In this document: positions 12,196 to 57,760 of the stretch, one piece after another | How the letters are laid out: every line of letters starts with the position of its first letter | How positions within the stretch are numbered: position 1 is the stretch's first letter | NCBI GenBank assembly: GCA_965223265.1 | Contig: OZ244999.1 | Location: forward strand, 2,016,001-2,080,000 | Origin: Planctomycetota bacterium | Lineage (GTDB): Bacteria > Planctomycetota > UBA8108 > SXIK01 | Direction of reading: 5' to 3' | Length of the DNA stretch: 64,000 nt | Position numbers and translations under genes: made by a program | The notes under the pieces: model-generated | What the model saw: only the letters and a program-made list of their open reading frames with translations | What the model was told of the DNA's origin: nothing | The model's database searches: none

Positions 12196-15069
12196 ATGCT
12201 CAGCGACATGGAACAGCGACCAAGCCAACCGCCACCGACGCCACCTGAGTCCACGCATTCGGCGCAGCCGGCCGCCGCGCAGCGCCCGAGACGTCGCCGC
12301 CGGGTCTGGCTCAAACTGGTCTTGGCCTTGGTCATCGCACTTGCGATCGCGATCGCGTTTTTGCCGGCGCTCGCATCCAAGTTCGCCAAGGGTCCGATCG
12401 TCTCCAGTCTCAGCGAACGCCTTCAGGCCCCTGTCGCAGTTGAGAGCTTGGAGCTGTCGTGGGGCGGCGAGCAGCGCGTTCAAGCGGCGGTCATCGGAGC
12501 GCCCAGTGGCTTCCCTCAAAATGAGGAGTTTCTCCGGTTCCGCCATGCGACTCTCCGCAGCGGTCTCTTCGGGCTGCTTTTTGGATCGAGTCCGATCACC
12601 TTGGAGGTGGAAGAGCCGCTAGTCAATATCGTCCGGCGCAGCGACGGCAAGTTCAACTTCGAGGCGTTCATCGCTGCGAGCGACGACCAGGATGGGAGGG
12701 AAAAGGAAACGCGACCCGACGGCGACAAAGAGTCGTCAGAGCCTCCACCGCAGCATCCAGATTCGCAGGACGCGGACTCTTTCGCACGTGACGTCGTATT
12801 CTCGCTCAAGGGAGGCACGGTCGACTATCGCGACGATCATCTCGGCACGACGGCTCGACTCGATGCGATGGAGCTCGCCCTGACGAAAACTGCGCATCAG
12901 ATCAACTGCGTCTTCTCTGCGACGTCGCGCGCTCGTGAAGGCGCTCAGCCCGGCACCGTCAAAGCGCAGTTGGCCGTCGACGACATCGAGTCACTTCGTG
13001 CGCGCGGCGCCGCGGATGTCAGTGGGATCGCCGTCGACGCCTCCGTTCGCAACTTCGATCTGCGTCCGTACCGCGGGCTTCTGGAGAAATTTGCGAGTGT
13101 GAATTCGCCACCGGAGCCGGTAGACCTCACGATCGATGCGTCCAGCGGCCGTGATTTCCTTCGGCTCACCGCCAAGGCGGACGTCGGCTTCGCTACACTC
13201 AACGAACTATCCATACGCCTGCCAACGGGAGTGGGCGACCACTCCGAAGCCGGCGCTGGAGTCGAGCAGACACCTGAAGGCGAGCTGCAGGAACTTGCGA
13301 TCAGCGCCGATTACTCACTTTCCCTGGCGCCGCTGCTCGACTTTCTACGACCCATGCACGCAAGTCTGGCGTCCGCCGAGCTCAGCGGTAGCGCCGCAGG
13401 AAACCTGAAGCTCTCGGCGCCCTATTCTCTGCAGCAGCTTCTGCGCGGTGACAAGCCGGCACTGCGATCAACACTACACTTCGAGGCGCAAGACATCGAG
13501 GCCAGTTGGTCGCCACAAGAGATGTCGGCGCGCGCCGCCGACGCTGCCTCCGAGTCCGAATCTGACTCCGACTCCGTATCCGTGTCTGACTCCGTCTCCG
13601 CCTCTGTATCCGACTCCGCCTCTGTATCCGACTCCGACTCTGTCTCTGCCTCCGCCTCTGTATCCGTATCTGACTCTGCACCTGTATCCGCCACTGCCAC
13701 TGCCTCCGCCTCCACCCCCGAGCCTCCGAAACCAGCGTCGTCATCACCACTGCACGCGCCTCTCCGCTTCGTCGAAAAAAAGATCGTCTGCGATCTCGAA
13801 GCCGACCTCAGCGCCGCGTTCGACAGCATCCACATCTCCAAGCTGAACCTCAGCAGCGACGTCGTCAACCTGAGCGCCAATGGATCGATCCAGCCCGCCG
13901 GCGGTGCGCGAGCGGTCGACCTCCAGGCGGCGGGCTCGCTCCAGCTGGCGACTCTGGCGGCTTCGTTTGCGGAGCGACTTCCCGCCGGATTCAAGATTTC
14001 GCCGGCCACGCGGCTTGCGGTCGATGGTGCTCGGCTCTCTGGAGTGTTGGACCCGGAGAAATGGCGAGAGACCCTCGCAGCGCAGCTCCAGTTGACCCTC
14101 GGCGGCGACGTCAGCTACTACGCTAACAAGGTGAGCGCGCTCAAGAGCGACGTTCAGCTCGAGCGCGGCGCGCTGCATCTGACGGAGACGTCGATCGCCG
14201 CCAACGGCGGCGCGATCACTCTCGAACAGTTCATTCTCGACACCGCGTCGAAGCCGGCGACCTACAAAGCCGCCTTCAGTGCCCGCGATGTCGGGCTGAC
14301 CTATGACATGACTGCGCTTTTGGCCTATGCGTTGCCGTTTCTCTCCCTCGAAAGCCGGGAGAACTCGAACGTCGCCGGGCGCGTGGCCGCGAAGTTGTCG
14401 ATCTCTGGCCGCGGCTTCAGTCTTGAGGACCTGCAGGAGCACCTCACGGGTAGCGGCGAGATCAGTGTCGCGGACGCCACGCTGGCGGGCTCGAAGTTTT
14501 TCGCCGAACTTGGCCGTGCCATCGGTGGGCTGTCCGAGATCTCTGTGTTCAAGGAGTTCGGGTCAAAGTTCGATCTTGCCGGCGGCAAGCTGTCCGCGTC
14601 GCGCGTTGCACTGACTCCGGCGGCTGGCAGCAAGGTGCGCAACCTCGGCCTTACCGGAACCACGTGGTTCGACGGCCGCCTCGACTACGGCGTCGATCTT
14701 GCCGCGCTGCACGAGACCATCGGCGATAAGAAAATACGCCGCATTCTCGAGGATGCGCAGAGCATTCTCGGCGGCAATCTCGCCCCGCTTAAGCTGCGCG
14801 GCACGCTGCAGAAGCCGCAGCTCACCCTTGACGTCGGTGGCAGCACGCGCGGCGGTGGGCTGCTCGATCAACTGCCGGGCATTCTCGGCGATCGAAATGG
14901 TCGCCGGAAGCCGAAGGCCCAGGACACCCAGGACGCCGACAGAGCGCGAACGCCTGAGGGTGAACGTCAAGGCGATGACGCCCTCATCGACGACGTGCGC
15001 GGGCTGATCGATCTCTTCAAGAAGAGGAAGAAGAGGCGCCGAGAGTCGCCGTCGGAGCCCGAGAAGTAG
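12196..15069 (+). CDS. AsmA-like protein with an in-frame Ser-X repeat insertion
   Basis: N-terminal TM anchor, VEEPLVNIVRRSDGKFNFE motif, C-terminal GRLDY and PLKLRGTLQKPQL motifs. Confidence 0.75.
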   Translation: MLSDMEQRPSQPPPTPPESTHSAQPAAAQRPRRRRRVWLKLVLALVIALAIAIAFLPALASKFAKGPIVSSLSERLQAPVAVESLELSWGGEQRVQAAVIGAPSGFPQNEEFLRFRHATLRSGLFGLLFGSSPITLEVEEPLVNIVRRSDGKFNFEAFIAASDDQDGREKETRPDGDKESSEPPPQHPDSQDADSFARDVVFSLKGGTVDYRDDHLGTTARLDAMELALTKTAHQINCVFSATSRAREGAQPGTVKAQLAVDDIESLRARGAADVSGIAVDASVRNFDLRPYRGLLEKFASVNSPPEPVDLTIDASSGRDFLRLTAKADVGFATLNELSIRLPTGVGDHSEAGAGVEQTPEGELQELAISADYSLSLAPLLDFLRPMHASLASAELSGSAAGNLKLSAPYSLQQLLRGDKPALRSTLHFEAQDIEASWSPQEMSARAADAASESESDSDSVSVSDSVSASVSDSASVSDSDSVSASASVSVSDSAPVSATATASASTPEPPKPASSSPLHAPLRFVEKKIVCDLEADLSAAFDSIHISKLNLSSDVVNLSANGSIQPAGGARAVDLQAAGSLQLATLAASFAERLPAGFKISPATRLAVDGARLSGVLDPEKWRETLAAQLQLTLGGDVSYYANKVSALKSDVQLERGALHLTETSIAANGGAITLEQFILDTASKPATYKAAFSARDVGLTYDMTALLAYALPFLSLESRENSNVAGRVAAKLSISGRGFSLEDLQEHLTGSGEISVADATLAGSKFFAELGRAIGGLSEISVFKEFGSKFDLAGGKLSASRVALTPAAGSKVRNLGLTGTTWFDGRLDYGVDLAALHETIGDKKIRRILEDAQSILGGNLAPLKLRGTLQKPQLTLDVGGSTRGGGLLDQLPGILGDRNGRRKPKAQDTQDADRARTPEGERQGDDALIDDVRGLIDLFKKRKKRRRESPSEPEK
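13549..13714 (+). repeat. (TCYGNN)n hexamer tract inside the AsmA-like CDS
   Basis: tccgag tccgaa tctgac tccgac tccgta tccgtg... encoding SESESDSDSVSVSDSVSASVSD... Confidence 0.9.
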
Positions 15070-26011: not shown

Positions 26012-26017
26012 CGTCGA

Positions 26018-26188
26018 CAGAGGCAGAGGCGGAGGCAGATGCAGAGTGCTGGTACGCCCACACCCACGCACACGCCCACGCCCACGCAAACGCAAACGCA
26101 AACGCAAACGCAAACGCACACGCACACGCTCACACCCACGCCCACGCCCACGCCCATGCCCACGCCCACGCCCACGCTCACGCCCACC
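26018..26188. repeat. Bipartite hexamer microsatellite (CAGAGG)n then (CACGCN/AACGCA)n
   Basis: Directly visible immediately after the protease stop codon. Confidence 0.9.
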
Positions 26189-26413: not shown

Positions 26414-26737
26414 ATGGGCTTTCTCGCTTTGGATCACACTTTTGTCATCGTTCGTCAGCTGCGCCCGCTTGTCTCGAGCGTTCGTCGTCACGACTCGAAG
26501 CTGGCCGCTCAGCTGCGCGACGCAGGCTCTTCTCTGGCGCTCAGTTTGGGCGAAGGCAATCGACGCGAGGGGCGTGACCGCGGGCATCTTTGGCGCATCG
26601 CTTCGGGCAGCGCTGAAGAGGTGTGCACGGCACTTCGGGTTGCTGAAGCTCGGGGCTACATCGATGCATCGCACACCGCTGCGGTACTCGCGGACATCGA
26701 TGCGCTGCAGGCGATGCTCTGGAAGCTGACGCACTGA
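26414..26737 (+). CDS. Four-helix-bundle protein (23S rRNA IVP / Avd-like), 107 aa
   Basis: GGAG RBS. LAAQLRDAGSSLALSLGEG and RIASGSAEEV match the QLRRA.SI..NIAEG..IARGS..E family signature. Confidence 0.9.
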   Translation: MGFLALDHTFVIVRQLRPLVSSVRRHDSKLAAQLRDAGSSLALSLGEGNRREGRDRGHLWRIASGSAEEVCTALRVAEARGYIDASHTAAVLADIDALQAMLWKLTH

Positions 26738-26776: not shown

Positions 26777-26840
26777 AGACAGAGGCGCGCGCCCACGGTC
26801 ACCGTCACCCAGGCCCACGCCCACGCCCACGCAAACGCCT
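26777..26840. repeat. Short AGAGGC + (CACGCC)n tract downstream of the four-helix-bundle gene
   Basis: gagacagaggc ... cacggt caccgt ... cacgcc cacgcc cacgca aacgcc. Confidence 0.7.
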
Positions 26841-43502: not shown

Positions 43503-43566
43503 CAACTGCTTTGCCTCAACTGCTTTGCCTCAACTGCTTTGCCTCAACTGCTTTGCCTCAACTGCT
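43503..43566. repeat. 14-bp tandem repeat (CAACTGCTTTGCCT) x4.6
   Basis: Perfect copies at 43503, 43517, 43531 and 43545, plus a partial fifth. Confidence 0.95.
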
Positions 43567-45420: not shown

Positions 45421-45524
45421 GGCCAATCCTCCTCTGAGTTTGGGCTCGCCACGAGCGAAGCCCGTGATTTTAACTGCAGGCTTTATAGCACTGCGTGGGG
45501 ATGGATTGGCCTTCTCATCCCATT

Positions 45525-45605
45525 CTTCGTTTGCTTCGTTTGCATCTGTTCAAGATTCAAGAGATCAGAAGAAGAGTTGAACAAAAGGAAACAAAGTCAA
45601 CGAAG
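45525..45605. repeat. Imperfect inverted repeat abutting the IS end
   Basis: CTTCGTTTGCTTCGTTTGCATCTGTTCAA versus TTGAACAAAAGGAAACAAAGTCAACGAAG. Confidence 0.6.
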
Positions 45606-45707
45606 GAAGACCGTCCAAAGGAGCAAGCAACGTCGTGTGTCGTCCGGTCTGGCACACCCCGACCCCGATGTTGCAAAAGAAAAGCGCTTCAAGGCGATGC
45701 GCGATTG

Positions 45708-46595
45708 CGTGTGCGTGTGCGTGTGCGTGGGAGTGGGAGTGGGAGTGGGAGTGGGAGTGTGCGTGGGAGTGGGAGTGTGCGTGGGAGTGGGAGTGGGAGT
45801 GGGAGTGGGCGTGTGCGTGTGCGTGTGCTGAAAGTAGCAGGCACACTCCCGTGTGCCGTCCGGTCTTGTGTGAGCGTGAGCGTGTGCTGAAAGTAGCAGG
45901 CACACTCCCGTGTGCCGTCCGGTCTTGTGTGTGAGCGTGGGCGTGAGCGTGAGCGTGTGCGTGTGCGTGTGCGTGTGCGAGGGCGTGTGCGTGTGCGTGT
46001 GCGTGTGCGTGTGCGTGTGCGTGTGCGTGTGCGTGTGCGTGTGCGTGTGCGTGTGCGTGTGCGTGGGCGTGTGCGTGTGCGTGGGCTGAAAGTAGCAGGC
46101 ACACTCCCGTGTGCCGTCCGGTCTTGTGCGTGTGCGTGTGCGTGTGCGTGTGCGTGTGCGTGTGCGTGTGCGTGTGCGTGTGCGTGTGCGTGTGCGTGTG
46201 CGTGTGCGTGTGCGTGTGCGTGTGCGTGTGCGTGGGCTGAAAGTAGCAGGCACACTCCCGTGTGCCGTCCGGTCTTGTGTGTGAGCGTGGGCGTGAGCGT
46301 GAGCGTGAGCGTGTGCGAGGGCGTGGGCGAGGGCGTGTGCGTGTGCGTGGGCGTGGGCGTGTGCGTGGGCGTGGGCGTGGGAGTGTGCGTGGGAGTGTGC
46401 GTGGGAGTGTGCGTGGGAGTGTGCGTGGGAGTGTGCGTGGGAGTGTGCGTGGGCGATCGAAGACCGGTTCTCTGCGTCTGGCTCCGTATCTGTATCTGTA
46501 TCTGCCTCCGTATCTGCATCTGACTCTGATTCTGACTATTCTGCCTCTGCCTCTGCCTCTGCCTCTGCCTCTGACGCCGTATCTGCATCTGTCTG
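45708..46595 (+). repeat. Composite array: (GTGTGC/GTGGGA/GTGGGC)n with four identical 43-bp REP units, then a (TCTGNN)n tract
   Basis: CTGAAAGTAGCAGGCACACTCCCGTGTGCCGTCCGGTCTTGTG at 45828, 45887, 46086 and 46237. Confidence 0.95.
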
Positions 46596-46729
46596 GGTAC
46601 GTCCGAACTACGTCCGTGTCCGCCGCCCTTTCCGAAGGACCAAGACCTCGGCGATCAACCGCGATCGGAACCGATCGCACCTCGCCTTTGTGATACACAC
46701 GTCGTGTCATCCGTGGCATCATGCCGCGC

Positions 46730-48010
46730 ATGAAGAGCTTCTCTTTCGAGCCCGGACTTCTGCAGGAGCCGCCCGTTTTCACCGTGACACAAGTGACGGG
46801 CGCGCTGCGTGAGACGCTCGAAGAGGCGTTTCCGTACGTGCGCGTCCAAGGTGAGATCTCGAATTTTTCGCGGCCGCAGTCTGGGCATCTTTACTTTTCC
46901 CTTGTGGACGACGCCGCCAGCGCCGGGACGTCGCGGATGGCGTCCGCGCAGCTGCCATGCGTGATGTGGCGTTCGTCGGCGTCGCGGTTGAAGTTTCGTC
47001 CGGAGAATGGTGTTCGGGTCGTCGTTGCCGGTCGGCTAACGGTCTATGAGCCTCGCGGCACGTATCAGCTCGTGGCAGATCGTCTGCAACCGGTCGGCCT
47101 CGGCGAGCTGCAGCGTCGATTCGACGCGTTGAAGGAAGACCTCTATCGCGAAGGTCTCTTTGCCGCCGAACGCAAACGGCCCCTGCCGCGCTGGCCGGCG
47201 TGCATCGGGCTGGTAACCTCTCCCACTGGAGCCGCGATACGAGATTTTCTCCGCATCCTGTTCCAGCGCCATCCACGTGCCTGGGTGCGTGTTGTTCCCG
47301 TACGCGTTCAGGGCGATGGCTCGGCCTCGGAGATTGTCGCTGCGCTCGACGTGCTCAACCGTTCGGGATCGCCGGTTGACGTGATCGTTGTGACGCGCGG
47401 CGGTGGCAGCCTGGAAGATCTCTGGTCGTTCAATGAAGAGCCGGTCGCGCGTGCGATCGCGGCAAGCGCCGTACCCGTCGTTTCAGCGATAGGACACGAG
47501 GTCGACTATACGATCGCGGACTTCGTCGCCGACGCCCGCGCGCAAACTCCGACCCATGCGAGCGAGTTGGTCGTGCCAGACGTTAGTGAGGTGACCGAAA
47601 GGCTTGGGGCGACGCTACGCCGGCTTCACCTTGCCGCCGGTGGTATCGTCGCGCGCCGCCGCGAGCGGGTCGACGAGAGGCTCCAGTCACGTACATTCGC
47701 GCGACCCGTCGAGATGTTGGCGAGGCGGGCGGAGTACGTGGACCAACTTTTCGACAAACTCGACAGTGGCCTTCAACGGTGGCTCGTTCGCCAAGAGCAT
47801 GAAATTCAAGCACTTGCTGGTCGACTGGGGGCATTGGATCCACGAAGAGTCTTGGCGCGAGGTTATGCGAAAGTGACCAATGCGGATGGAGAGATAGTCC
47901 TGAACGCTCGACAAGTGAAGATCGGCGAGCTTGTCGCCGTCGAACTGGCCTCTGGTCGAATCGAGGCGCGTGTCGAGTCGAACGGCGACGCATCGGAGTT
48001 TGCTGAATGA
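46730..48010 (+). CDS. xseA: Exodeoxyribonuclease VII large subunit
   Basis: [42 protein letters not shown] and SAIGHEVD. Confidence 0.97.
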
Positions 48011-48360
48011 GTGAGCCGGAACAAAGTCCCTACACATCGTTTGAAGAAGCGTTTGAGGCGGCAGAGAACGCAAGCGATCGACTCGAGCGCGGCGACCTAA
48101 CTCTCGAGGCGAGCTTGAAAGAATACGAACGCGGCGCACGTGCTCTGCGTGAGTGTTATCGGATGCTCGAGACGGCGCAATCACGGCTGGAAGTGCTGCG
48201 CTCGGAGACGCGAAGTGACGGAAACGATTCAGACAGCGCAGCATGGGTTGTCGCCAAACCATCTGGGCCGTTGGAAGAGGTGCTTCGGCATTTGGGGCAG
48301 GAGGGGGAAACGCCTCAGAGCGACGGTGCTTCAGAGGCAGGAAGGATCGTCAAAGAATGA
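48007..48360 (+). CDS. xseB: Exodeoxyribonuclease VII small subunit
   Basis: SFEEAF..LERGDLTLEASLKEYERG. ATGA overlap with xseA. Confidence 0.92.
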   Translation: MSEPEQSPYTSFEEAFEAAENASDRLERGDLTLEASLKEYERGARALRECYRMLETAQSRLEVLRSETRSDGNDSDSAAWVVAKPSGPLEEVLRHLGQEGETPQSDGASEAGRIVKE

Positions 48361-48489
48361 CGAGATTTCCTTGTCTTCTGGCAGATGCGAACTATTATTC
48401 TTCGTTTGAACTTGCAGCGACGGCCCGGCGGCCGCAACGGCCGGCCAGTGAGCTTGTCGATTGAGCTGAGTTCGAAGAGGAGCCCGCTC

Positions 48490-50514
48490 ATGCCTGATGT
48501 CCTGTCTCGTGTCGATCATCCTCATGATCTGCGCGGACTCTCGATCGCGGAGCTTGAACAGCTCGCTACAGAGATTCGCCAGCGGATTATGGAGGTCGTC
48601 AACGTCAACGGGGGGCACCTGGCGTCCAATCTCGGCATGGTCGAACTGACGCTGGCGCTTCATCGCGTCTTCGATCTGCCTCACGATCGTCTCGTTTGGG
48701 ACGTGAGTCATCAGACGTACCCCCACAAATTGCTCACGGGGCGTAAGGATCGATTTCATCTTCTCCGCAAATACAACGGGATTAGTGGGTTCTGCAACAA
48801 ACGCGAGAGCGTCTTCGATCTCTTCGACGCTGGTCACGCGGGTACGGCGGTGTCGCTCGGACTCGGCGTCGCCGTTGCCGACCACCTTCTCGGTCGGCGA
48901 AGTAAGACGATTGCGGTAGTTGGCGATGCAGCGATTGCCGCCGGCATGGCATTTGAAGCGCTGAACCATGCCGGCGAGCTGAAACGCGACTTCATGGTCG
49001 TGCTCAACGACAATCGAATGTCGATCGACGTCTCGGTGGGGGCGCTGTCGAAGTACCTGAACAAGCTGCGCACAAAGCCCAAGTACCAAGATCTCAAGAA
49101 GGATATGCACGACGTCTTGTCGCGCATTCCGGTGGTCGGCAAACGGATGGAAGGGACGCTCGACCACGTTCGGGAGTCGATCAAGCATTCGTTTGTGCCT
49201 GGACTGATTTTTCAGGAGCTTGGTTTCAACTACTACGGGCCGGTCGACGGACACGATCTTTCGGGACTGCTGCAAGTTTTCGAGGATTTGAAACAGCAGA
49301 GCGCTCCGATTCTCCTGCACCTTCACTCGGTGAAGGGGTGCGGCTACGATCCCGCGACGAACGATCCGGTCAAGTACCATGCTCTGAAGGGCTTTCTCAA
49401 GAAAGACACCGTCGGCGACAAGAGCGACGAGACGGACAAGACCGACAAGACCGTCAAGCCGGAGACAGCGGCGCCGCCGAAGCCGCGTCAGGTGATGTAC
49501 TCCGACGTCTTCGCGGAAACGCTGATCGAAGCCGCGCGCAAGGATCGGCGCTTGGTGGCGATCACGGCCGGCATGCCTGGCGGGACAGGGTTGACGGCGT
49601 TCGCCAAAGAGTTTCCAGAACGTTACTTCGACGTCGGCATCGCGGAGCAGCATGGCGCCGCAGTCAGCTCTGGGATGGCGTACGGCGGCTTGAAGGCCGT
49701 GTTCGCCGTCTACTCAACGTTTTGCCAGCGTGCGTACGACCAGTTCGTGCATGACGTTTGCATTCAAGAGAATCCGGTCATCCTCTGCCTGGATAGGGCT
49801 GGTCTGGTCGAGGATGGATGGACGCACCATGGCGTGTTCGACATCGCCTACATGCGCTGCATTCCGAACTGTATTTTGATGGCGCCCAGAGACGCCGAAG
49901 AGTACGTGCGAATGTTCCAGCTGGCTCTTGAGCAGACCGACAAGTGCGTCGCGATACGATACCCCAAGGCCGCGGTGCCGAAACTGCCCTCGAGTCGTGA
50001 GCCGCAGCTCGTCCTTGGCAAAGCCGAAACCCTTCGACAGGGCGAAGGCGTGGCGATCCTCGCCTACGGTGCGATGGTCGAGTTGGCCTACCAAGCTGCT
50101 TCTGAGCTCGAGCAAGGCGGTGTTGATGTTACCGTCGTCAATGCTCGATTTGCTAAGCCCTTCGACACGGACCTTCTGTGTCGACTCGCGCCGCGGCACC
50201 ACAGCTTGATCACGATCGAGGAGCATGCGCTCGCCGGTGGTTTTGGCAGCGCCGTCCTCGAGCACATTGCCGATCTCAACTTGTCGTTCTCGCGCGTGGT
50301 CCGTATGGGCGTGCCGGATCACTTTCAGAACATCGGCGCGCGTGAGCACTTGCTTCAGGACTGCGGGCTGACGGTCGAGAACATCGTGAGCTCCGCTCGC
50401 GAGCTTCACAGTGGCAGCGAGTCGACCCTGCCAACGGCGCAGAGACCGGTTCGAACCAGCGGCGCTGAGGCTTCAGGGCGGAGTCGGTCGGACCTTTCAT
50501 CGCCGGTTCGGTGA
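48490..50514 (+). CDS. dxs: 1-deoxy-D-xylulose-5-phosphate synthase
   Basis: [42 protein letters not shown] and DVGIAEQH. Confidence 0.98.
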
Positions 50515-50564
50515 GGCTCACCCCACGGATCTTCGCGCGAACCATCTTTCTGGAGCAGCACCGC

Positions 50565-51020
50565 ATGCGCGCCGTCGTCCAGCGGGTGAATCACGCCGAA
50601 GTGACAGTTGGCGGTGCGTGCACCGGAAAGATCGAGCGTGGTCTTCTTGTCTTTCTTGGTATCGGCCGGAACGACACCGATGACGACGTCCGCTACTTGG
50701 CTGAAAAAGTAGTCGACTTGCGCATCTTTCCCGGCGCGGACGGCAAGTCGATGCAGCGGTCGCTTCGAGACTTGTCCGGCGGCGAGGTGCTGCTTGTCTC
50801 TCAGTTCACGCTCTATGGTGATTGCCGCAAGGGCCGGAGGCCAAGTTTTGACGCTGCCGCGCAACCCGAGACTGCCAAGACTCTTTACAGGGGATTCGCG
50901 GCGGCTTTGACCGCGAGAGGATTTCCGCCGCAGGAAGGAGTCTTCGCTGCGCAGATGTTAGTGTCGCTGGAAAACGACGGGCCAGTGACCATTCTTCTCG
51001 ACAGCGAACGGACTTTCTGA
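50565..51020 (+). CDS. dtd: D-aminoacyl-tRNA deacylase
   Basis: [20 protein letters not shown] and NDGPVT. Confidence 0.97.
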
Positions 51021-51088
51021 AACCGAACCACCGCCGCAGTAGAATCTCGTGCGAAATCCCGGCTGAGATAGTCTAATAGTCATAGCCT

Positions 51089-51919
51089 ATGCCCACCGCC
51101 ACCGCCTCTCCACGCAACTACTATGAGGTCTTGAACGTCTCGCCGCATGCGAGCCTTGACGATATCCGTCGCGCGTTCAAGCGGCAGGTCATCGAGGCTC
51201 ATCCGGACAAGAATCCTGAGCGGCGCGACTGGTCGGAGCGGCGCGTTCGAGAGCTCATTCAGGCGTACGAGATCATCGGCAAGGCGGACTCTCGTGAGCG
51301 TTTCGACCGTGAGTATCGAGCCTACAGCCGCATCCGTCGTAAGCGAGGATTGCAGCGACCGTTCTTTTTCGACCGCACTGATCCGGGGTCGCGCGCACTG
51401 TTGATCCTCCACCATCTCGGCCGCCAGGAATCGGACCGTGCGGTGGATCTCGTCTGGGAGATGGAAACGCGGCTTGGTGGCCGATTCCTTGAGGACTACC
51501 TCGATCGCAGTGACTATCTCGACTGTCTCTTTTTGCTCGCCGAGCATCACGTGCTGCGGCGGCAGTTCCGAGAAGCTTTCAACCGTCTGCGAGAGTTCTA
51601 CCTCGAAGACCGCGATGCGGTCAATCGACGCCATTACTTTGACCAAGTGGTTGATCGACTCAAGGATCTCTACCTCCGAAAACTCCCGCCCGTTGTCGCC
51701 TCGCAGGAGATACCGCGACTGATGCGTGAAGTCGAAGGCCTTGGTCTGACGAAAGCAGAAGAGAAGCTTCGCTTGCGGCGCCTCGCGGAAGCGCATGTCG
51801 ATAGTGGAAATCTGCAGGCTGCCCGCTCGGTGATCGGGGTTCTGCGTAGCACGTTTCCCAAGGCGAAGGAAATCGAAAAGATCGAGAGTCTGCTCTCGCG
51901 TCGCGAGCGTTCCGCTTGA
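51089..51919 (+). CDS. J-domain protein with a helical (TPR-like) C-terminus
   Basis: NYYEVLNV..HPDKNP..AYEII. Confidence 0.88.
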   Translation: MPTATASPRNYYEVLNVSPHASLDDIRRAFKRQVIEAHPDKNPERRDWSERRVRELIQAYEIIGKADSRERFDREYRAYSRIRRKRGLQRPFFFDRTDPGSRALLILHHLGRQESDRAVDLVWEMETRLGGRFLEDYLDRSDYLDCLFLLAEHHVLRRQFREAFNRLREFYLEDRDAVNRRHYFDQVVDRLKDLYLRKLPPVVASQEIPRLMREVEGLGLTKAEEKLRLRRLAEAHVDSGNLQAARSVIGVLRSTFPKAKEIEKIESLLSRRERSA

Positions 51920-51948
51920 CGTGACGTGCACTCGTTTGGAGTGGAGAA

Positions 51949-53058
51949 ATGAACGACACCCTGCACATGCATGCGGTGATCATGGCCGGGGGGTCGGGAA
52001 CTCGTTTCTGGCCGCTGAGCCGTAAGAATCTTCCGAAGCAGTTTCTTGCGCTCACCAGCGAGAAGAGTCTCTTGCGCGAGACGTATCTGCGTCTTCGGGA
52101 AGTCGTCAGCGCCGACCGCATCTGGGTCATCGCCAACGCGCATCACGTCGACCTCGCGCGTTCGGAGCTGCCGGAGGTGCCACCGGAGAACATCATCGGC
52201 GAGCCGGTGGGCCGCAACACGGCTCCGTGCATCGGTCTGGCCGCGGCGTGCGTCGCGGCGAAGGATCCCCAGGCACGACTGCTCGTTTGCCCTGCTGATC
52301 ACAGCATTCGGCCAGTGCCTGAGTTTGCCAGCAGTGTCGCCACGGCGCTCGCGGCCTTGGATCAGCTTGAGACAGAAGATGAGCCCTTCACCGTCACCTT
52401 TGGGATCAAGCCGCACTATCCTGCAACTGGATTCGGCTACATCGAACGAGGCGAAGGGATTCGCGTTGCCGGTGAAGACGCCGGCGTCTTTTCAGTCTCC
52501 AAGTTCAAGGAAAAACCGAGCTCGGACGTGGCGCGCGAGTATATCGACAGTGGCAGCTTCTACTGGAACTCGGGGATCTTTCTCTGGCGTGCTGGCGGCA
52601 TTCTTCAGCTGATCGAGACGCACCTGCCCGAGCTGTCTGCCGGGATCGACCTGCTCTCTCAATCGGGTCTCGAGCCGGCCGATTTGCAGACCACGCTCGA
52701 CGAGCATTTCGCTCGTTTGCCCTCGATTTCGATCGACTACGGGGTTCTAGAGAAGACACCGAGCGTTGCCGTTGTCGAGGCGACGTTCGAATGGGATGAT
52801 GTTGGATCCTGGAAGGCTGTTGAGCGCTATGCCACCGACGACGGCGCCGGTAACCATGTCATCGGTCGCCACGTTGGTATCGACACCGGGCGCTCCATCG
52901 TCGTCGCTGGGAAGCGACTTGTTGCCACGATCGGGCTCAGCGATGTCGTCGTCGTCGAAACGGATGATGCAGTGCTGGTCTGTCACCGCGACCACACTGA
53001 ACGGGTGCGCGAGGTTGTCGACTTGCTGCCGGAGTGCGGCGAGGAACAGCTGCAGTGA
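51949..53058 (+). CDS. manC: Mannose-1-phosphate guanylyltransferase
   Basis: IMAGGSGTRFWPLSR..PKQFL, EPVGRNTAP, FKEKP, WNSGIF, SIDYGVLE and WDDVGSW. Confidence 0.95.
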   Translation: MNDTLHMHAVIMAGGSGTRFWPLSRKNLPKQFLALTSEKSLLRETYLRLREVVSADRIWVIANAHHVDLARSELPEVPPENIIGEPVGRNTAPCIGLAAACVAAKDPQARLLVCPADHSIRPVPEFASSVATALAALDQLETEDEPFTVTFGIKPHYPATGFGYIERGEGIRVAGEDAGVFSVSKFKEKPSSDVAREYIDSGSFYWNSGIFLWRAGGILQLIETHLPELSAGIDLLSQSGLEPADLQTTLDEHFARLPSISIDYGVLEKTPSVAVVEATFEWDDVGSWKAVERYATDDGAGNHVIGRHVGIDTGRSIVVAGKRLVATIGLSDVVVVETDDAVLVCHRDHTERVREVVDLLPECGEEQLQ

Positions 53059-53077
53059 GTGAAGCGGCGGGCGACGC

Positions 53078-53542
53078 ATGACGCGTCTTCTCGGCATTGA
53101 CCACGGTGACAAACGGATCGGGCTGGCGCTCAGCGATGAACTGCAGCGGATCGCTACGCCGCATGGAGTCGCGCACGGCGAGGCGGAGTTGGGGCGCGAA
53201 ATAGAGCGACTCATTCGTGACGAGTCGCTCGTCGGTTTAGTCGTTGGACTACCGCTCAATATGGATGGTAGCGCGGGTCCCAAGGCGCGTCAGGTGCTCG
53301 AGTTTGTCGAGCGACTGAAGCAGCGATTCGACTTGCCCGTTGAGACCATCGACGAGCGACTGACGAGCGTCCAGGCCGAGTCCATGCTCCGCGACATGGG
53401 GGTGCCGCCAAAGAAGCGAGCCGCCCGGATCGATCAGGTTGCGGCGCAGATCATCCTGCAGGATTTCCTCGACGCGCAGGCCCGGCGGCGACAAGGCGGC
53501 GACGGACCCACGGACGCTTCCGGACTCGCGGATTGCCCTTAG
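53078..53542 (+). CDS. ruvX: YqgF/RuvX pre-16S rRNA nuclease
   Basis: LGIDHGDKRIGLALSD, VVGLPLNMDG, DERLTS and IDQVAAQIILQ. Confidence 0.95.
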   Translation: MTRLLGIDHGDKRIGLALSDELQRIATPHGVAHGEAELGREIERLIRDESLVGLVVGLPLNMDGSAGPKARQVLEFVERLKQRFDLPVETIDERLTSVQAESMLRDMGVPPKKRAARIDQVAAQIILQDFLDAQARRRQGGDGPTDASGLADCP

Positions 53543-53792
53543 ACGTTTACACCCTGAGCTTTACGTTGTTCCCCGAGCTTCGAGATGTCACTACAAAGGG
53601 TGGAAAAAGAGTGGTTTTCACCGCTCCGCGGTGGTGTTAGGATATGGGGCTTGTTCGATCACCGGGATAAAGAGGACGCGCGAGCCTGGCTATCTCGCTG
53701 GTTGTAGGTGTGACCGCGGGCGTCCGTGAGCGGGGGCTCAACGTCCAGGCCTCGAAATCCTAAGCACAGGAATTTTAATCAAACTGGTCTCA

Positions 53793-54062
53793 ATGAGCTT
53801 GACCAAAGAGGAATCAGCACGCATTCGCGGCGAGTACGCCCGCAAGCAGAACGACAGCGGATCGCCCGAAGTTCAAGTCGCACTCTTGAGCGCCCGCATC
53901 AAGAGCATCACCGAGCACCTCAAGAGCCACAAAAAGGACCATGCGTCCCGTCGTGGACTTCGCATGCTCGTCGGTCGGCGATCGAAACTTTTGCGCTATC
54001 TGTCACGCAAGAATTTCGATCGTTACCGTAACCTGATCGAGTCGCTTGGCCTGCGCCGGTAG
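53793..54062 (+). CDS. rpsO: 30S ribosomal protein S15
   Basis: [24 protein letters not shown] and LGLRR. 89 aa. Confidence 0.98.
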
Positions 54063-54655
54063 AGCCAACGAAGCTGCGCGTCCTCGGCACAAGCGCGCGC
54101 TCAGGCGACAATGCCCGACTCTGTGTCTCTCCACAGAGACGGCGTCCGGCGTTCTGGGTGACGGGCTGCGGCTGCCTCGCAGATTCGCGTCGCGTCACGA
54201 ACTCCCTTATCGGGCGTTCGTACGCCGTCGCTGCGGGTGGCAGAAGCCGACTGGCAGAGTGAGCCGGCCAGCCTTGATCGGAGACTCGCTGCGCATCCGA
54301 GTGAGAAATCTGTTGAGCCTGCGGCTGAGGCCCAAAATGTGCCGAAGATAAGGCGATGAGATGTGACGTTATAGGCAACAGATGCCGCCAACGGAGTTCA
54401 TCGCAAGGAGGTGAAACGGACGAAAATCCCTGACCGGCTGGGCGGTCTGCTGAAGAATAAGAATCAAAGATGCGGCCTTAAGGAACTGTCACGAGGCCAA
54501 GATGTTTCCCGCCGTCTGCGGGCGTGTCCGCCGTTTGCTGCGACGTCTCTCAGCTTTGGAGTCGCTGCGCCGTTCGGACCATGAGGCGACCTGTGCGTTG
54601 AGTCGGGTGGATCCGACTCCTCAGGTCGAAGAGGTTGAAAGCAGGTTAGATCAAG

Positions 54656-56770
54656 ATGATTCACAAAGTTGAGAAGGTGATTGGCGGCCGGACCCTGAGT
54701 ATCGAGACTGGACGCATTGCTCGACAGGCCGCCGGGGCGGTGCTCGTCGCTTACGGCGAGACGTCAGTTTTTTGCGCCGTGACCTTGGCCGAACCACGAG
54801 AAGGTTTGGATTTTTTTCCACTCACCGTCGACTACCGGGAAAAGACGTTCGCGGCAGGAAAGTTCCCAGGCGGATTCTTTAAGCGAGAAGGCCGTCCGAC
54901 GACCAAGGAGATCCTTACCTGCCGGCTCATGGATCGTCCCATTCGTCCGCTTTTTCCATCCGAGTTCAAGATGGATACGGCGGTTCAGTCGATGGTCCTG
55001 TCGGCTGATGGTGAAAACGATCCGGATATCCTGGCAATGGTCGCTTCGTCGGCGGCGCTGGCGATTTCCGAGGCGCCGTTCGGAGGCCCAACCGGGTCGG
55101 TGCGCATTGGGCAAGTCGACGGCGAGCTCGTCGTCAACCCAACGATCTCAGAGCTGGACGCCAGCGAAATCGATCTGGTGGTTTCAGGGACGCGTGATGC
55201 GGTGACGATGGTCGAGGCTGGCGCCAAAGAAATCTCTGAGGAGCGTATGCTCGAAGCGATCGTCTTTGGTCACGGCGTGATCAAAGAGATCATCGAGCTT
55301 CAGGAAGAGCTCGTGCGACGATGCGGCAAGCCGAAGCTTGAGCTCGAACCGCTCGAGGATCATTCGGCGCTGACCACCGATCTGAGAAATCGCTATTTCG
55401 ATCAGATTCCAGGTGTTCTGCGCACTGAAGGCAAGCTCGCGCGCAAGGAAGCGACGAAGAAGTTCGTCGAAGCGTGCCTCGACGAAGTCGCTCCCGAGCC
55501 TGAGGAAGGCGCGGAACCTCCCGCGGGACAACCCGATCGCAAACTCGTCAAGGCACTCTTGAACGAGCTCGCGGAGGAAGCTGAGCGCGAAATGATCCTT
55601 GGCGGCACCCGCACCGACGGGAGGAGTCAAACGGATATCCGCGACCTGTCGATGGAGGTCGGGTTCCTGCCGCGCGTGCATGGCACGGCGCTGTTCACCC
55701 GCGGCGAGACTCAGTCGATCTCGACGGTGACGCTCGGAACGCGGGAGGATCAGCAGATCGTCGATGGCCTCGGCGACGAGGTCAAAGAGAAGTTCATGCT
55801 GCACTACAACTTTCCGTCCTATTGTGTCGGAGAGACGTGGCCGAATCGTGGCCCCAAGCGACGAGAGATCGGCCACGGCGCGTTGGCATCGCGCGCCATC
55901 AAGGCTGTGCTGCCTGACGTCGACAAGTTCCCCTACACCATCCGCGTCGTCTCGGACATCACGGAGTCGAACGGCTCGTCGTCGATGGCGACGGTTTGCG
56001 GCGGTACGCTGGCGCTCATGGACGCCGGTGTGCCCATTCAGCAGCCGGTCGCCGGCATCGCCATGGGCCTTGTCAAGCAGGACGACCGCGTCGCGATTCT
56101 GAGTGACATTCTCGGCAGCGAAGATCACAACGGGGACATGGACTTCAAGGTCGCCGGGACACAGCGCGGCATTACGGCGCTGCAGATGGATATCAAGGTC
56201 ACCGGAATCTCGCAAGAGATCATGTCGCGTGCGCTCGCGCAGGCGAAAGAGGGGCGGATTCATCTGCTCAGGCAGATGCTGAAGGTGCTGCCACGACCAC
56301 GCGACGAGGTGTCTCCGTATGCTCCGAAGTTCTGCACCATGCGCATCGATCCGGAGAAGATCGGCATCGTGATTGGGCCGAGTGGCAAGGTGATCAAGGG
56401 CATTCAGGAAGAGACCGGTGCCAAGATCGACATCGAAGACGACGGCCGCGTCAACATCTGGGGCACGTCATTCGCGAGTGCACGTGCGGCGCAGGTGCGT
56501 ATCGAGTCCTTGACTGAGGAAGTGCGGCCAGGACGCACCTATGAAGGCAAGGTCGTCTCGATCAAGGATTTCGGCTGTTTCGTCGAGGTGCTACCGGGAC
56601 AGGAAGGCCTTGTGCACGTCTCCGAACTTGGAGATGGCTTCGTTCAGAAGGTCAGCGACGTCGTCAAGATCGGTGACATCATTTCGGTGAAGTGCATCGG
56701 AGTCGACAACCAAGGTCGCATCAAACTGTCGAAGAAGGCCGCGGAAGAAGGCGCGCACAACCCCGGTTGA
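54656..56770 (+). CDS. pnp: Polyribonucleotide nucleotidyltransferase
   Basis: FFPLTVDY, RLMDRPIRPLF, RREIGHG, SNGSSSMA and GDMDFKVAGT. KH and S1 domains. Confidence 0.98.
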   Translation: MIHKVEKVIGGRTLSIETGRIARQAAGAVLVAYGETSVFCAVTLAEPREGLDFFPLTVDYREKTFAAGKFPGGFFKREGRPTTKEILTCRLMDRPIRPLFPSEFKMDTAVQSMVLSADGENDPDILAMVASSAALAISEAPFGGPTGSVRIGQVDGELVVNPTISELDASEIDLVVSGTRDAVTMVEAGAKEISEERMLEAIVFGHGVIKEIIELQEELVRRCGKPKLELEPLEDHSALTTDLRNRYFDQIPGVLRTEGKLARKEATKKFVEACLDEVAPEPEEGAEPPAGQPDRKLVKALLNELAEEAEREMILGGTRTDGRSQTDIRDLSMEVGFLPRVHGTALFTRGETQSISTVTLGTREDQQIVDGLGDEVKEKFMLHYNFPSYCVGETWPNRGPKRREIGHGALASRAIKAVLPDVDKFPYTIRVVSDITESNGSSSMATVCGGTLALMDAGVPIQQPVAGIAMGLVKQDDRVAILSDILGSEDHNGDMDFKVAGTQRGITALQMDIKVTGISQEIMSRALAQAKEGRIHLLRQMLKVLPRPRDEVSPYAPKFCTMRIDPEKIGIVIGPSGKVIKGIQEETGAKIDIEDDGRVNIWGTSFASARAAQVRIESLTEEVRPGRTYEGKVVSIKDFGCFVEVLPGQEGLVHVSELGDGFVQKVSDVVKIGDIISVKCIGVDNQGRIKLSKKAAEEGAHNPG

Positions 56771-56784
56771 TACTTTTTCGACAG

Positions 56785-56831
56785 CCGGAGGGGGCGGTGG
56801 CGCCTTTGGGCCACCGCCCCCTCCGGTTTTT
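56785..56831 (+). terminator. Intrinsic terminator of pnp
   Basis: CCGGAGGGGGCGGTGGC / GCCACCGCCCCCTCCGG followed by TTTTT. Confidence 0.92.
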
Positions 56832-57014
56832 CCGTGTCCTTGAGGCGGAGAAGGAGACGGAGCTTGCCACGTTCAGAGACCCACGAGAGCGTGCCTGCTG
56901 TTTGAGCGATTACGCCGACGCAATCGCAATCGTTCACGCCCACTGGCGCAGCCTCATCGGAAACGCAAGGGATTGCGCCCGCCGCGAGCGCAGCGGGCGC
57001 ATGGGCTCGCACGC

Positions 57015-57338
57015 TCAGCGAGTCAGCCCGCGAAGAAGTGCGAGCAGACGATCAAGCGTCTCGAGAGACGTCGTGACGTCGTCGCCTCTCAGATCGCCCC
57101 AGGCCAGAGCCAGTCGTAGCGCGGTCTCGACCTCGCGCGCACTGCCGCGCGCGACGCGAAAGAGGTGCTGGCGATCTTTCCCAGCGCGCTCGGCGCCTTC
57201 CGAGAGGTTGAGCGCCACCGAAGAAGCAGCGCGCCGAAGCTGCCGATGCAGATCGGGATCGAGCCGCCGAAGCCGCGCCAAAGGAACTCGCAAATCGCCA
57301 ATCAAAGCGAGACTGACATCGAGAGCGATGAAACGCAT
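57015..57338 (-). CDS. Four-helix-bundle protein (23S rRNA IVP / Avd-like), 107 aa, second paralog
   Basis: GGAGG RBS. QLRRAASSVALNLSEG and RVARGSAREV. Ungapped alignment to 26414-26737 (49/107 identical by hand). Confidence 0.9.
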   Translation of the reverse strand: MRFIALDVSLALIGDLRVPLARLRRLDPDLHRQLRRAASSVALNLSEGAERAGKDRQHLFRVARGSAREVETALRLALAWGDLRGDDVTTSLETLDRLLALLRGLTR

Positions 57339-57417
57339 GTGAAGCCTCCGCAGAAAAAGTGAGTCGAAAGCCCGCCACGTCCGAGCGGCGGTACTGCACC
57401 CCCCAACGCGGAGCGGA

Positions 57418-57472
57418 GGGGCAGTCAAGGGCGCGAAGCGCCGAGCGCAGCGAGGGCACCCTTGACTGCCCC
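57418..57472 (-). promoter_or_regulatory. Conserved branched hairpin upstream of the four-helix-bundle gene, copy 2
   Basis: Perfect 14-bp stem GGGGCAGTCAAGGG/CCCTTGACTGCCCC enclosing the shared core. Confidence 0.85.
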
Positions 57473-57519
57473 GAGCACCGCGTACACTCGACAATGACCG
57501 CCGCCGTACGGTGACCCCT

Positions 57520-57708
57520 GCTACAGAAGCAGAGGCGGAGACAGAGGCAGAAGCAGCGTCAGAAGCAGATACGGATCCAGAGACGGAGACGGGCCGCCCA
57601 CGCCTACGCCCACCCACACGCCCACGCACTCGCCCACGCACTCGCCCACGCACTCGCCCACGCACTCGCCCACGGCCTTGAAGCGCTTCTTGTTCGCGAC
57701 AATGGGGG
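57520..57708 (-). repeat. Leader + (GTGGGC/GAGTGC)n + (TCYGNN)n bipartite array
   Basis: (CACGCACTCGCC)x4 and a CAGAGG/CAGAAG tract. The leader is homologous to 45663-45711. Confidence 0.88.
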
Positions 57709-57760
57709 GCGGAGGCGGATCGCGGCATTGCATCACGCGTGGGCGCTGGTCTCGGCTCCC

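What the first reader, a model, noticed from the sequence alone, without database searches (positions are those of the whole stretch)
45663..57708. Distant microsatellite arrays share a unique leader and a fixed polarity
Seen: 45663-45711 and the reverse complement of ~57659-57707 match at 38/49 positions (core AAGCGCTTCAAGGC) and both run straight into the GTG-rich tract. At 45.7, 57.6 and 26.1 kb the order on the G-rich strand is always (GTGNGC)n, short linker, (TCYGNN)n. Several leader differences are synonymous in one frame ([14 protein letters not shown] versus VANKKRFKAVGECV). Inference: these are copies of one dispersed element with a defined start, not independent slippage products, and may encode or derive from a peptide.
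Basis: partly seen in the sequence, partly recalled or inferred. Interest (0 to 1): 0.72.

Follow-up and report, generated by a model that had tools for sequence, protein, structure and literature searches.

The report
Ordered hexamer-repeat mosaic with REP hairpins
The two distant repeat tracts are copies of a non-coding, genome-wide family of ordered six-base repeat arrays that are woven together with known REP hairpin repeats and that flank every small four-helix-bundle gene in this bacterium.

Summary
45663-45711 and the reverse complement of 57659-57707 match at 38 of 49 positions, and both run into a (GTGNGC)n tract followed by (TCYGNN)n.

This is a genome-wide pattern, not a local one. 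The 9.18 Mb genome has 237 hexamer-array loci. There are 57 simple A-then-B composites, against 5 in reversed order and 4 on opposite strands. The roughly 40-nt leader has 69 copies, and 51 of them run straight into at least 2 A units. Only 33 of 157 A-bearing loci carry a leader.

Shared junction motifs, shared unit order and length differences in multiples of 6 nt point to common descent plus slippage.

The peptide idea is not supported. Leader variation shows no codon periodicity, every frame has stops in some copies, and orientation does not track the flanking genes. Orientation does track replication direction (166 versus 64 loci).

The 59-nt unit inside the window's array is a GTAG-tagged REP hairpin with 335 copies, and a single RAYT-like gene is flanked by such REPs.

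All 38 four-helix-bundle (PF05635) matches lie within 333 nt of an array.

Verdict: a lineage-specific, REP-cluster-like non-coding mosaic, which I rate a new variant of a known kind. The link to four-helix-bundle genes is unexplained.

The parts
45524..45660 (+). Module M: AT-richer, hairpin-like dispersed repeat just upstream of the leader
   Evidence: blastn finds 28 genomic copies of at least 50 nt. Only weak miRNA-like hairpin hits in Rfam, E 0.28-0.79.
45663..45702 (+). Leader copy 1 (CCCCGATGTTGCAAAAGAAAAGCGCTTCAAGGCGATGCGC), ending where the first GATTGC unit starts
   Evidence: nhmmer E=1.2e-14.
45703..46460 (+). A array, (GATTGC/GTGTGC/GTGGGA/GTGAGC/GTGGGC)n, in four blocks (45703-45828, 45931-46086, 46130-46237, 46281-46460) separated by REP units
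45826..45877 (+). REP unit 1 (GTAG + GGCACAC/GTGTGCC hairpin); further copies at 45885-45936, 46086-46134 and 46237-46286
   Evidence: nhmmer E about 2e-15 each. Fold energy -17.6 kcal/mol.
46461..46470 (+). A-to-B junction (AGACCGGTTC)
46471..46592 (+). B array (TCYGNN)n
57668..57707 (-). Leader copy 2
   Evidence: nhmmer E=1.9e-11.
57595..57673 (-). A array (GTGGGC GAGTGC)n on the minus strand
57522..57587 (-). B array. Its start GGCCCGTC|TCCGTCTCTGGATCCGTATCTG... recurs at the junction in 4 other loci
57380..57490 (-). Long stable hairpin module upstream of the four-helix-bundle gene
   Evidence: MFE -71.6 kcal/mol over 111 nt. Contig depth in public runs is 10-25 times that of the flanks, so it is multi-copy.
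57015..57338 (-). Four-helix-bundle gene, 107 aa, TIGR02436/PF05635, 'type 2'
56920..56931 (-). Two GATTGC units downstream of the four-helix-bundle gene; in paralogous copies this spot holds long A arrays
   Evidence: upstream contexts of 749352, 6975406 and 9046403.
26016..26187 (-). Third composite: A array 26054-26187, then B array 26016-26046, starting right after the stop of the + strand gene 23582-26011
26414..26737 (+). Four-helix-bundle gene 'type 1', with a hairpin module at about 26268-26330 upstream and a short A array at 26808-26839 (-) downstream
13549..13680 (+). B-type array inside a long gene (12322-15069), read in frame as an SD/SV/SA linker

Best explanation
The arrays are non-coding building blocks of a lineage-specific mosaic repeat family, of the REP-cluster or BIME kind. 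An ancestral stretch with six-base periodicity was copied to many intergenic sites. Its parts, in order, were:
- the leader, which ends in GATTGC GATTGC;
- a series of variants each one substitution from the next: GATTGC, GTTTGC or GAGTGC, GTGTGC, GTGGGC, GTGGGA;
- a short junction;
- TCYGNN units.

At each site the individual units then expanded or contracted by replication slippage. That keeps the order, and so the polarity, while lengths differ. GTAG-tagged REP hairpins, the likely substrates of the genome's single RAYT-like transposase, sit inside the A arrays in the same orientation and are co-amplified with a few hexamers.

Shown: the family, its order, the junctions, the REP and RAYT association, intergenic location, and orientation bias relative to replication.

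Inferred: spread by copying, by single-strand transposition or by recombination; slippage as the length-changing process; orientation-dependent stability as the cause of the replication bias.

I found no sign of a cellular role beyond a tolerated or selfish repeat. The tie to four-helix-bundle genes may hide one.
For: Family size and order: 221 A and 188 B arrays in 237 loci, with A-then-B in 57 simple loci against 5 reversed and 4 on opposite strands.

Internal order: T-type units lie upstream of G-type units in 56 of 61 loci, p=6e-12. Median relative positions are GATTGC 0.12, GTTTGC 0.30, GTGGGC 0.64 and GTGGGA 0.81.

Common descent: recurrent junctions GTRCCRGNAC|TCTGC and GGCCCGTC|TCCGTCTCTGGATCC among 66 junctions. 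Paralogous B arrays share their unit order, with lengths 146, 146, 123 and 158 nt.

Leader: 69 copies, of which 51 are followed at once by at least 2 A units, against 1.5% at random positions.

Non-coding: 204 of 221 A arrays and 152 of 188 B arrays are intergenic by my own rough gene caller. There is no codon periodicity, there are stops in all frames, and there is no consensus fold. No Rfam family, sigma-70 promoter or intrinsic terminator was found.

Location: 86 of 230 loci lie between convergent genes (37%, against a 16.7% background). Tandem contexts split 57 to 53.

Replication: the G-rich/TCYG strand lies on the lagging-strand side in 166 of 230 loci, p=1.3e-11. Away from four-helix-bundle genes it is 115 versus 54. 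The origin assignment is backed by a DnaA-family gene at the skew minimum.

REP and RAYT: 335 REP hits, and 92 of the 93 that touch an A array are on its strand. Eleven REP hits flank a 215-aa ORF with an HVH motif and YIRDNP, which scores 26.4 bits on PF01797 (cut-off 23) and has NF047646 as its best NCBIfam hit. REPs end in GTAG, and REP clusters co-amplify flanking DNA (PMC3733652, passages read).

Other modules: 149 of 237 array loci have another mosaic module within 400 nt.
Against: - Only 33 of 157 A-bearing loci carry the leader, and 88 of 237 loci have no other recognised module within 400 nt. Part of the family may therefore be free-standing microsatellites.
- No element ends, target-site duplications or empty sites were found. 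No congeneric genome was available to look for them, so mobility is inferred and not shown.
- Leaders themselves show no replication bias, 31 versus 38.
- REP hits inside A arrays count 63 leading to 30 lagging, the opposite of the per-locus array bias, because a few multi-REP loci dominate the count.
- The 38 of 38 association with four-helix-bundle genes, kept in order-level relatives that use other hexamers, is hard to square with purely neutral repeats.
- The gene calls are my own crude ones and miss small genes.
Confidence: 0.62

Rival explanations
1. The arrays are cis-acting partners of the lineage-specific four-helix-bundle (Avd-like) genes. They could be a binding platform, a processing signal or a propagation signal for a cassette made of a four-helix-bundle gene, its hairpin and its arrays. 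The free-standing arrays would then be remnants or satellites of such cassettes.
For: - 38 of 38 PF05635 matches lie within 333 nt of an array. Random placement gives a mean of 1.2 and a maximum of 5 within 500 nt.
- The two gene types keep fixed and different orientations to the arrays, and convergent pairs enclose a B, leader, A, 200-nt element, B stretch.
- In order-level relatives, 9 of 15 four-helix-bundle loci have a hexamer array of at least 7 copies within about 350 nt, built from other hexamers. Several contigs end there.
- In a phylum-level control, 1 of 30 loci has such an array.
- PF05635 resembles the nucleic-acid-binding DGR protein Avd (PMC10053308, passages read).
Against: - Only 60 of 237 array loci are within 1 kb of a four-helix-bundle gene, and only 8 of 69 leaders.
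- No binding, transcript or mobility data exist.
- The relatives are kin and not independent, and their genome-wide array density was not used as a control.
- The four reverse-transcriptase matches in the genome were not listed near arrays. I compared their coordinates with the array table only by eye.
Confidence: 0.17
2. The leader and arrays encode small repetitive peptides, for example VAKEKRFKA...(CV/GV)n on the G-rich strand or (TE)n(TP)n on the C-rich strand.
For: - Hexamer periodicity keeps frames open; an ORF of 71 aa covers 57521-57736.
- The same repeats are translated inside long genes as TE/TP or SD/SV linkers.
Against: - Leader variation shows no three-base periodicity.
- Leader-to-array spacing differs by 1 nt between copies, so the array frame is not kept.
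- In the largest leader subfamily, GATTGCGATTGAG gives a stop in that frame right after the leader.
- There is no orientation preference relative to neighbouring genes, 57 versus 53, while orientation follows replication.
- The common junction type puts TE and TP readings in different frames. I inferred this from the junction sequences.
Confidence: 0.04
3. The arrays are independent microsatellites that arose many times by slippage from a favoured hexamer, and the order and leader are coincidental.
For: - 84 A-only and 77 B-only loci exist.
- 88 loci lack other recognised modules within 400 nt.
- Hexanucleotide repeats are enriched in most prokaryotic phyla (PMC12699852, passages read).
Against: - Order is 57 versus 5 versus 4.
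- Internal order holds in 56 of 61 loci.
- Non-repetitive junction strings and leaders are shared between loci.
- A-type arrays are almost confined to this genome among 31 searched.
Confidence: 0.07
4. The arrays are contingency (phase-variation) loci, or structural DNA signals such as G-quadruplex or Z-DNA, that tune expression of the adjacent genes.
For: - (GTGGGC)n fits the G3N3 quadruplex pattern and (GTGTGC)n alternates purine and pyrimidine; both follow from the sequence itself.
- 34 loci lie between divergent genes.
- The window's large array sits between an IS110-family transposase gene and xseA.
Against: - Most loci lie at gene 3' ends: 37% convergent and 15% divergent, against 16.7% each in the background.
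- A six-base unit cannot shift a reading frame.
- The neighbours seen are not a coherent gene class (and the contexts).
Confidence: 0.07

Closest known systems
REP sequences and their clusters (BIMEs, head-to-tail REP clusters) with RAYT / TnpA-REP transposases
   Same: - A short GC-rich hairpin tagged by GTAG.
- Hundreds of extragenic copies, enriched at gene 3' ends.
- Tandem clusters that carry flanking DNA along.
- One HUH/Tyr transposase-like gene flanked by the repeats.
Sources: and PMC3733652 passages read.
   Different: - The spacers are long, ordered compound hexanucleotide microsatellites with a fixed A-then-B polarity and a separate 40-nt leader.
- The REPs lie head-to-tail on one strand and do not alternate.
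- Four-helix-bundle genes are part of the mosaic.
I found none of this described in searches.
Modular intergenic repeats such as the BOX elements of Streptococcus pneumoniae (boxA-(boxB)n-boxC). I recalled this comparison and did not check it in any call.
   Same: A defined start module, a variable number of internal units and an end part, dispersed in intergenic DNA.
   Different: The internal units here are 6 nt rather than about 45 nt. There are two successive unit classes with a variant gradient. No conserved end module was found: the candidate end module turned out to be the terminator of the type-1 four-helix-bundle gene.
Coding serine-aspartate or TP/TE low-complexity linkers (SD-repeat type). 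The name is recalled; the translations are.
   Same: The same hexamers, (TCN GAY)n or (ACN GAG)n(ACG CCC)n, are read in frame inside at least 10 long genes, including window gene 12322-15069.
   Different: About 87% of arrays are intergenic (356 of 409 by my gene calls), and they show no frame or strand relation to genes.
23S rRNA intervening-sequence / Avd-like four-helix-bundle proteins (PF05635, TIGR02436)
   Same: The window's two small genes match the family at 44-48 bits on PF05635 and 46-49 bits on TIGR02436. Each has a long stable hairpin upstream.
   Different: - They are not in rRNA and no DGR-type context was seen.
- They match only positions 26-105 of the Pfam model, at 44-56 bits against 100-146 bits for typical members of the phylum.
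- They are always next to hexamer arrays.

Membership tests
REP (repetitive extragenic palindrome), for the 59-nt unit in the array | Short imperfect palindrome able to form a stem-loop | tested here: met
   GGCACAC-TCCC-GTGTGCC folds at -17.6 kcal/mol. Variant copies keep the stem through paired changes, e.g. GGCACTC..GAGTGCC, GGCACGC..GCGTGCC and GGCACAT..ATGTGCC.
REP | Conserved GTAG tetranucleotide at one end | tested here: met
   AAAGTAGCAGGCACAC... is seen in the window and in 161 pattern matches. The defining feature is taken from PMC3733652.
REP | High copy number, extragenic | tested here: met
   335 nhmmer hits at E<=1e-3; reversed-pattern control 0. I did not tabulate extragenic location for all copies.
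REP/RAYT system | A Y1 (HUH) transposase gene flanked by the REPs | tested here: met
   The only PF01797 match in the genome has 8 REP hits within about 560 nt downstream and 3 upstream.
RAYT (REP-associated tyrosine transposase) | Sequence membership above the curated threshold, with HUH and catalytic Tyr motifs | tested here: inconclusive
   PF01797 scores 26.4 bits, above its cut-off of 23. NF047646 is the best NCBIfam hit at 56.1 bits but is below its cut-off of 80. HVH and YIRDNP are present in the ORF; assigning them as the motifs rests on recall.
BIME (classical E. coli type) | REPs in alternating orientation separated by set linkers | tested here: not met
   REPs within arrays are head-to-tail on one strand: 92 of 93 are on the array's strand, and there are four direct copies in the window.
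Protein-coding repeat or peptide gene | Conserved open frame with codon-position-dependent variation | tested here: not met
   Variability is 0.158, 0.159 and 0.137 by phase, and 4-46 of 56 copies have stops in each frame.
Structured non-coding RNA | Conserved secondary structure or a match to a known family | tested here: not met
   RNAalifold returns an empty structure on 68 distinct leader copies, on both strands. No Rfam match beyond chance.
MITE or transposon with defined ends | Terminal inverted repeats and target-site duplication | not tested
   No empty sites were available, since there is no congeneric genome. I did not search for ends systematically.
Phase-variable contingency locus | A repeat in a promoter or 5' coding region whose unit number changes frame or promoter spacing | tested here: not met
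   The unit is 6 nt. 37% of loci lie between convergent genes and only 15% between divergent ones.

The most novel reading that the evidence does not exclude
The hexamer arrays and the divergent Avd-like four-helix-bundle genes form one system. It would be a self-propagating cassette, in which the small basic bundle protein acts on six-base-periodic DNA or RNA next to its own gene. Possible actions are loading, protecting or priming copying. The genome-wide arrays would be that system's footprints. This would give a first function to a large orphan protein family.
Probability: 0.15. Interest if true: 0.8.

Novelty: new variant of a known kind. Interest (0 to 1): 0.55.

Why it matters
REP/RAYT systems are known, but their clusters have been described as hairpins with plain linkers. 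Here the linkers are long compound microsatellites with a conserved internal order and a strong bias relative to replication direction. This is a natural set of about 240 loci for studying orientation-dependent repeat instability in a bacterium.

The complete co-location of 38 orphan four-helix-bundle genes with such arrays is kept in order-level relatives that use different hexamers, and is not seen in 29 of 30 phylum-level controls. That gives a testable lead on what this widespread Avd-like family does.

On the practical side, these loci break short-read assemblies and create spurious ORFs.

Tried and rejected
- **Leader outside this genome.** Not found in 30 relatives. Not found by a degenerate exact pattern in genome contigs or metagenome contigs. 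The genome's own records may be left out of those scans, and diverged copies would be missed.
- **Expression.** No RNA holder was listed among the sequencing runs. The four runs that hold the stretch (one study, kind not on record) are contigs that break between 57000 and 57645, so no array-length or expression information came from them.
- **Known RNA families.** Rfam at gathering and at E<=1 gave nothing relevant.
- **Promoters and terminators.** The sigma-70 and terminator scans found nothing in either locus. I looked by eye for sigma-54 and ECF spacing in the leader and saw no fit (reasoning only).
- **Conserved 3' end module.** The candidate after B arrays turned out to be the terminator of the type-1 four-helix-bundle gene (14 regex matches, 8 of them beside a B array).
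- **IS110 end as leader.** The IS110-family gene next to the 45.7 kb leader is single-copy, and module M is independent of it, so the leader is not simply that element's end.
- **Reverse-transcriptase origin of the arrays.** There are four identical RVT_1 copies. I did not follow them up, and none was near an array by eye.
- **Palindrome in the leader.** GAAGCGCTTC is not kept in the subfamilies, so a conserved dyad site is doubtful.
Full report
**1. The observation**

I read the three places named in the finding.
- 45663-45711 and the reverse complement of 57659-57707 agree at 38 of 49 positions in register. Shifting by 1-3 nt gives 10-19.
- The core AAGCGCTTCAAGGC occurs at 45682-45695 (+) and 57675-57688 (-).
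- Inside the window this alone could be chance: 20 of 100 shuffles give two matches at up to 2 mismatches.
- Both copies run into GNNNGC-type hexamers and then TCYGNN hexamers. The 26.1 kb locus has the same order on the minus strand.

**2. It is a genome-wide family**

The window is positions 2,016,001-2,080,000 of a single 9,179,496-bp contig with 60.8% G+C.

*Leader*
- The 14-mer occurs 9 times, each followed by hexamer units.
- A profile built from those copies finds 69 copies at E<=1e-3.
- A 24-mer with up to 3 mismatches finds 45 copies, against 0 for the reversed control.
- The consensus is about CCCCAWYGTTGCAAAAGAGAAGCGCTTCAAGRCCRTGCGC followed by GATTGC units.

*Arrays*

My scanner finds 221 A arrays (G[TA][GT]NG[CA])n and 188 B arrays (TCYGNN)n, about 27 kb in all, grouped into 237 loci.

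| Architecture | Loci |
|---|---|
| A only | 84 |
| B only | 77 |
| A then B | 57 |
| Complex, keeping the order | 7 |
| B then A | 5 |
| A and B on opposite strands | 4 |
| B on both strands | 3 |

So the polarity is not random.

*Leader and array together*
- 51 of 69 leaders are followed at once by at least 2 A units (random positions: 1.5%).
- 38 are followed by at least 3 units, 28 by at least 4 and 11 by at least 6.
- Only 33 of 157 A-bearing loci have a leader.
- The leader is therefore one of several possible starts. Two other recurrent upstream contexts are the flanks of four-helix-bundle genes.

**3. Common descent plus slippage**

- Among 66 A-to-B junctions, non-repetitive motifs recur: GTRCCRGNAC|TCTGC and GGCCCGTC|TCCGTCTCTGGATCCGTATCTG. 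The window's 57.5 kb locus shares the second with four other loci.
- Inside A arrays the unit variants are ordered. Median relative positions are GATTGC 0.12, GTTTGC 0.30, GAGTGC 0.35, GTGTGC 0.56, GTGGGC 0.64 and GTGGGA 0.81.
- T-type units precede G-type units in 56 of 61 loci that have both. Neighbouring variants differ by one substitution.
- In four paralogous copies of a larger unit, the B array keeps the same succession of variant units while its length is 146, 146, 123 and 158 nt.

This fits an ancestral hexamer-periodic sequence that was copied around the genome and whose units expand and contract locally.

**4. Not a peptide**

- Variability of the 45-nt leader core is 0.158, 0.159 and 0.137 at the three phases.
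- Each of the six frames has stops in 4 to 46 of the 56 gap-free copies.
- By my own rough gene caller, 204 of 221 A arrays and 152 of 188 B arrays are intergenic.
- Relative to flanking genes, 86 of 230 single-strand loci lie between convergent genes, 34 between divergent genes and 110 between tandem genes. The tandem ones split 57 to 53 by orientation. The background is 16.7%, 16.7% and 66.6%.
- No consensus fold, no Rfam family, and no sigma-70 promoter or intrinsic terminator was found.

When such arrays do lie inside long, well-scoring genes they are in frame. They read as (TE/SE/AE)n(TP/TQ/TH)n on the C-rich strand or (SD/SV/SA)n on the other. Window gene 12322-15069 is one example.

**5. 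Orientation follows replication**

- Cumulative GC skew puts the origin near 7.95 Mb and the terminus near 3.52 Mb. A DnaA-family gene lies at 7,963,028-7,963,483.
- The G-rich/TCYG strand is on the lagging-strand side in 166 of 230 loci (p=1.3e-11).
- The bias holds away from four-helix-bundle genes, 115 versus 54.
- Leaders show no such bias, 38 versus 31.

I read this as orientation-dependent repeat stability, or strand-specific insertion. That is inference.

**6. The embedded 59-nt unit is a REP**

- TRF's period-59 unit is AAAGTAGCA-GGCACAC-TCCC-GTGTGCC-GTCCGGTCTTGT.
- It has 335 nhmmer hits, and 161 pattern matches against 0 in the reversed control. Some stems carry compensating changes. 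There are 13 matches in one order-level relative, G005.
- Of 93 REPs that touch an A array, 92 are on the array's strand. The window's large array holds four.
- The genome's only PF01797 match is a 215-aa ORF with HVH and YIRDNP. Eight REP hits lie just downstream of it and three upstream.
- Pfam scores it above the cut-off (26.4 against 23). NCBIfam's best hit is 'REP-associated tyrosine transposase', but below that model's cut-off (56 against 80).
- GTAG tagging and tandem REP clusters that carry flanking DNA are described in PMC3733652 (passages read).

The classical alternating BIME arrangement is not met here.

**7. Other modules and neighbours in the window**

- 45524-45660 is a hairpin-like module with 28 copies.
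- 44281-45420 (-) is a single-copy IS110-family transposase gene.
- 46721-48010 (+) is xseA.
- 149 of 237 array loci have a leader, a REP, module M, a roughly 200-nt element or a four-helix-bundle gene within 400 nt.

**8. Four-helix-bundle genes**

- The genome has 38 PF05635 matches, 36 of them above the cut-off. All 38 lie within 333 nt of an array. Random placement gives a mean of 1.2 within 500 nt.
- The nearest array lies downstream of the gene in 32 of the 38 cases, 62-175 nt away.
- Two gene types keep fixed, different orientations to the arrays. Convergent pairs enclose a B, leader, A, 200-nt element, B stretch.
- The window holds one of each type, at 57015-57338 (-) and 26414-26737 (+). 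Each has a very stable hairpin upstream (-71.6 and -41.7 kcal/mol).
- In four order-level relatives, 9 of 15 four-helix-bundle loci examined have a hexamer array of at least 7 copies within about 350 nt, built from other hexamers. Many contigs end there.
- In 30 loci from 30 other genomes of the phylum, only 1 has such an array.
- The same-family relatives G001 and G002 have no PF05635 match, and neither array pattern was found in them.
- The closest four-helix-bundle relatives found elsewhere are 48-51% identical, in two MAG records labelled Myxococcota and Deltaproteobacteria.

I cannot explain this association. It is the main reason not to call the family purely neutral.

**9. Distribution**

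- The leader was not found in 30 relatives, nor by a degenerate exact pattern in the genome or metagenome collections.
- A-type arrays are almost confined to this genome among the 31 searched.
- B-like (TCCGAY)n arrays are common in G007, G014, G017 and G005.

**10. Verdict**

The 'dispersed element, not independent slippage' reading is supported. The 'unique leader as defined start' holds for about a fifth of the A loci. The peptide reading is not supported.

The thing is best filed as a new variant of the REP-cluster kind of mosaic repeat, with an unexplained and complete link to a divergent subfamily of Avd-like four-helix-bundle genes.

My literature searches turned up no description of such arrays. 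They are not exhaustive, and supplementary files could not be read.

Noticed in passing
window 44281-45420 (-) and 43503-43566: A single-copy IS110-family transposase gene (DEDD_Tnp_IS110 + Transposase_20) abuts the mosaic at 45.5 kb. A perfect 14-nt tandem repeat (CAACTGCTTTGCCT, 4.6 copies) lies about 700 nt beyond its 3' end. Whether this element targeted the REP or leader mosaic was not examined.
   Followed up: partly
L011 76-2184 (-) = G000:C1:7186575-7188683, and five further copies: A 2.7-3.5 kb unit encodes a 702-aa large serine recombinase (best NCBIfam hits XisF/Ccr-like, all below cut-off). It occurs in 6 copies at 97-99.8% identity, each abutting the upstream module of a type-2 four-helix-bundle gene. 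This looks like site-specific insertion into that module.
   Followed up: partly
G000:C1 1895554, 3424405, 3516453, 5913461: Four RVT_1 matches with near-identical scores in open frames of 449-455 aa. They are probably one retroelement in four copies and were not examined.
   Followed up: no
G000:C1:5353690-5354199 versus 7963028-7963483: Two DnaA-family matches. The stronger one (146.7 bits) lies 2.6 Mb from the GC-skew minimum, and the weaker one (90.1 bits) sits at it.
   Followed up: no
G000:C1 5694908-5698543, 5866723-5868897, 467404-469866, 3454013-3456919, 6392902-6395304: Long genes carry in-frame A+B or B arrays, read as (TE/SE)n(TP/TQ)n or (DT)n linkers. Whether these are insertions relative to homologues was not tested.
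   Followed up: partly
relatives G007, G014, G017, G005: Hundreds of matches to a (TCYGNN)6 pattern, mostly (TCCGAY)n, in order-level relatives. Many lie at contig ends, and these are the same genomes that hold four-helix-bundle genes.
   Followed up: partly
window 57428-57511 and 57596-57679: In contigs of four public runs from one study, summed depth over the hairpin module and over the A array plus leader is 10-25 times that of the flanks, and contigs break there. This is as expected for multi-copy repeats.
   Followed up: yes
window 6659-6731 (+): A tRNA gene, the only Rfam gathering-level hit in the window.
   Followed up: no
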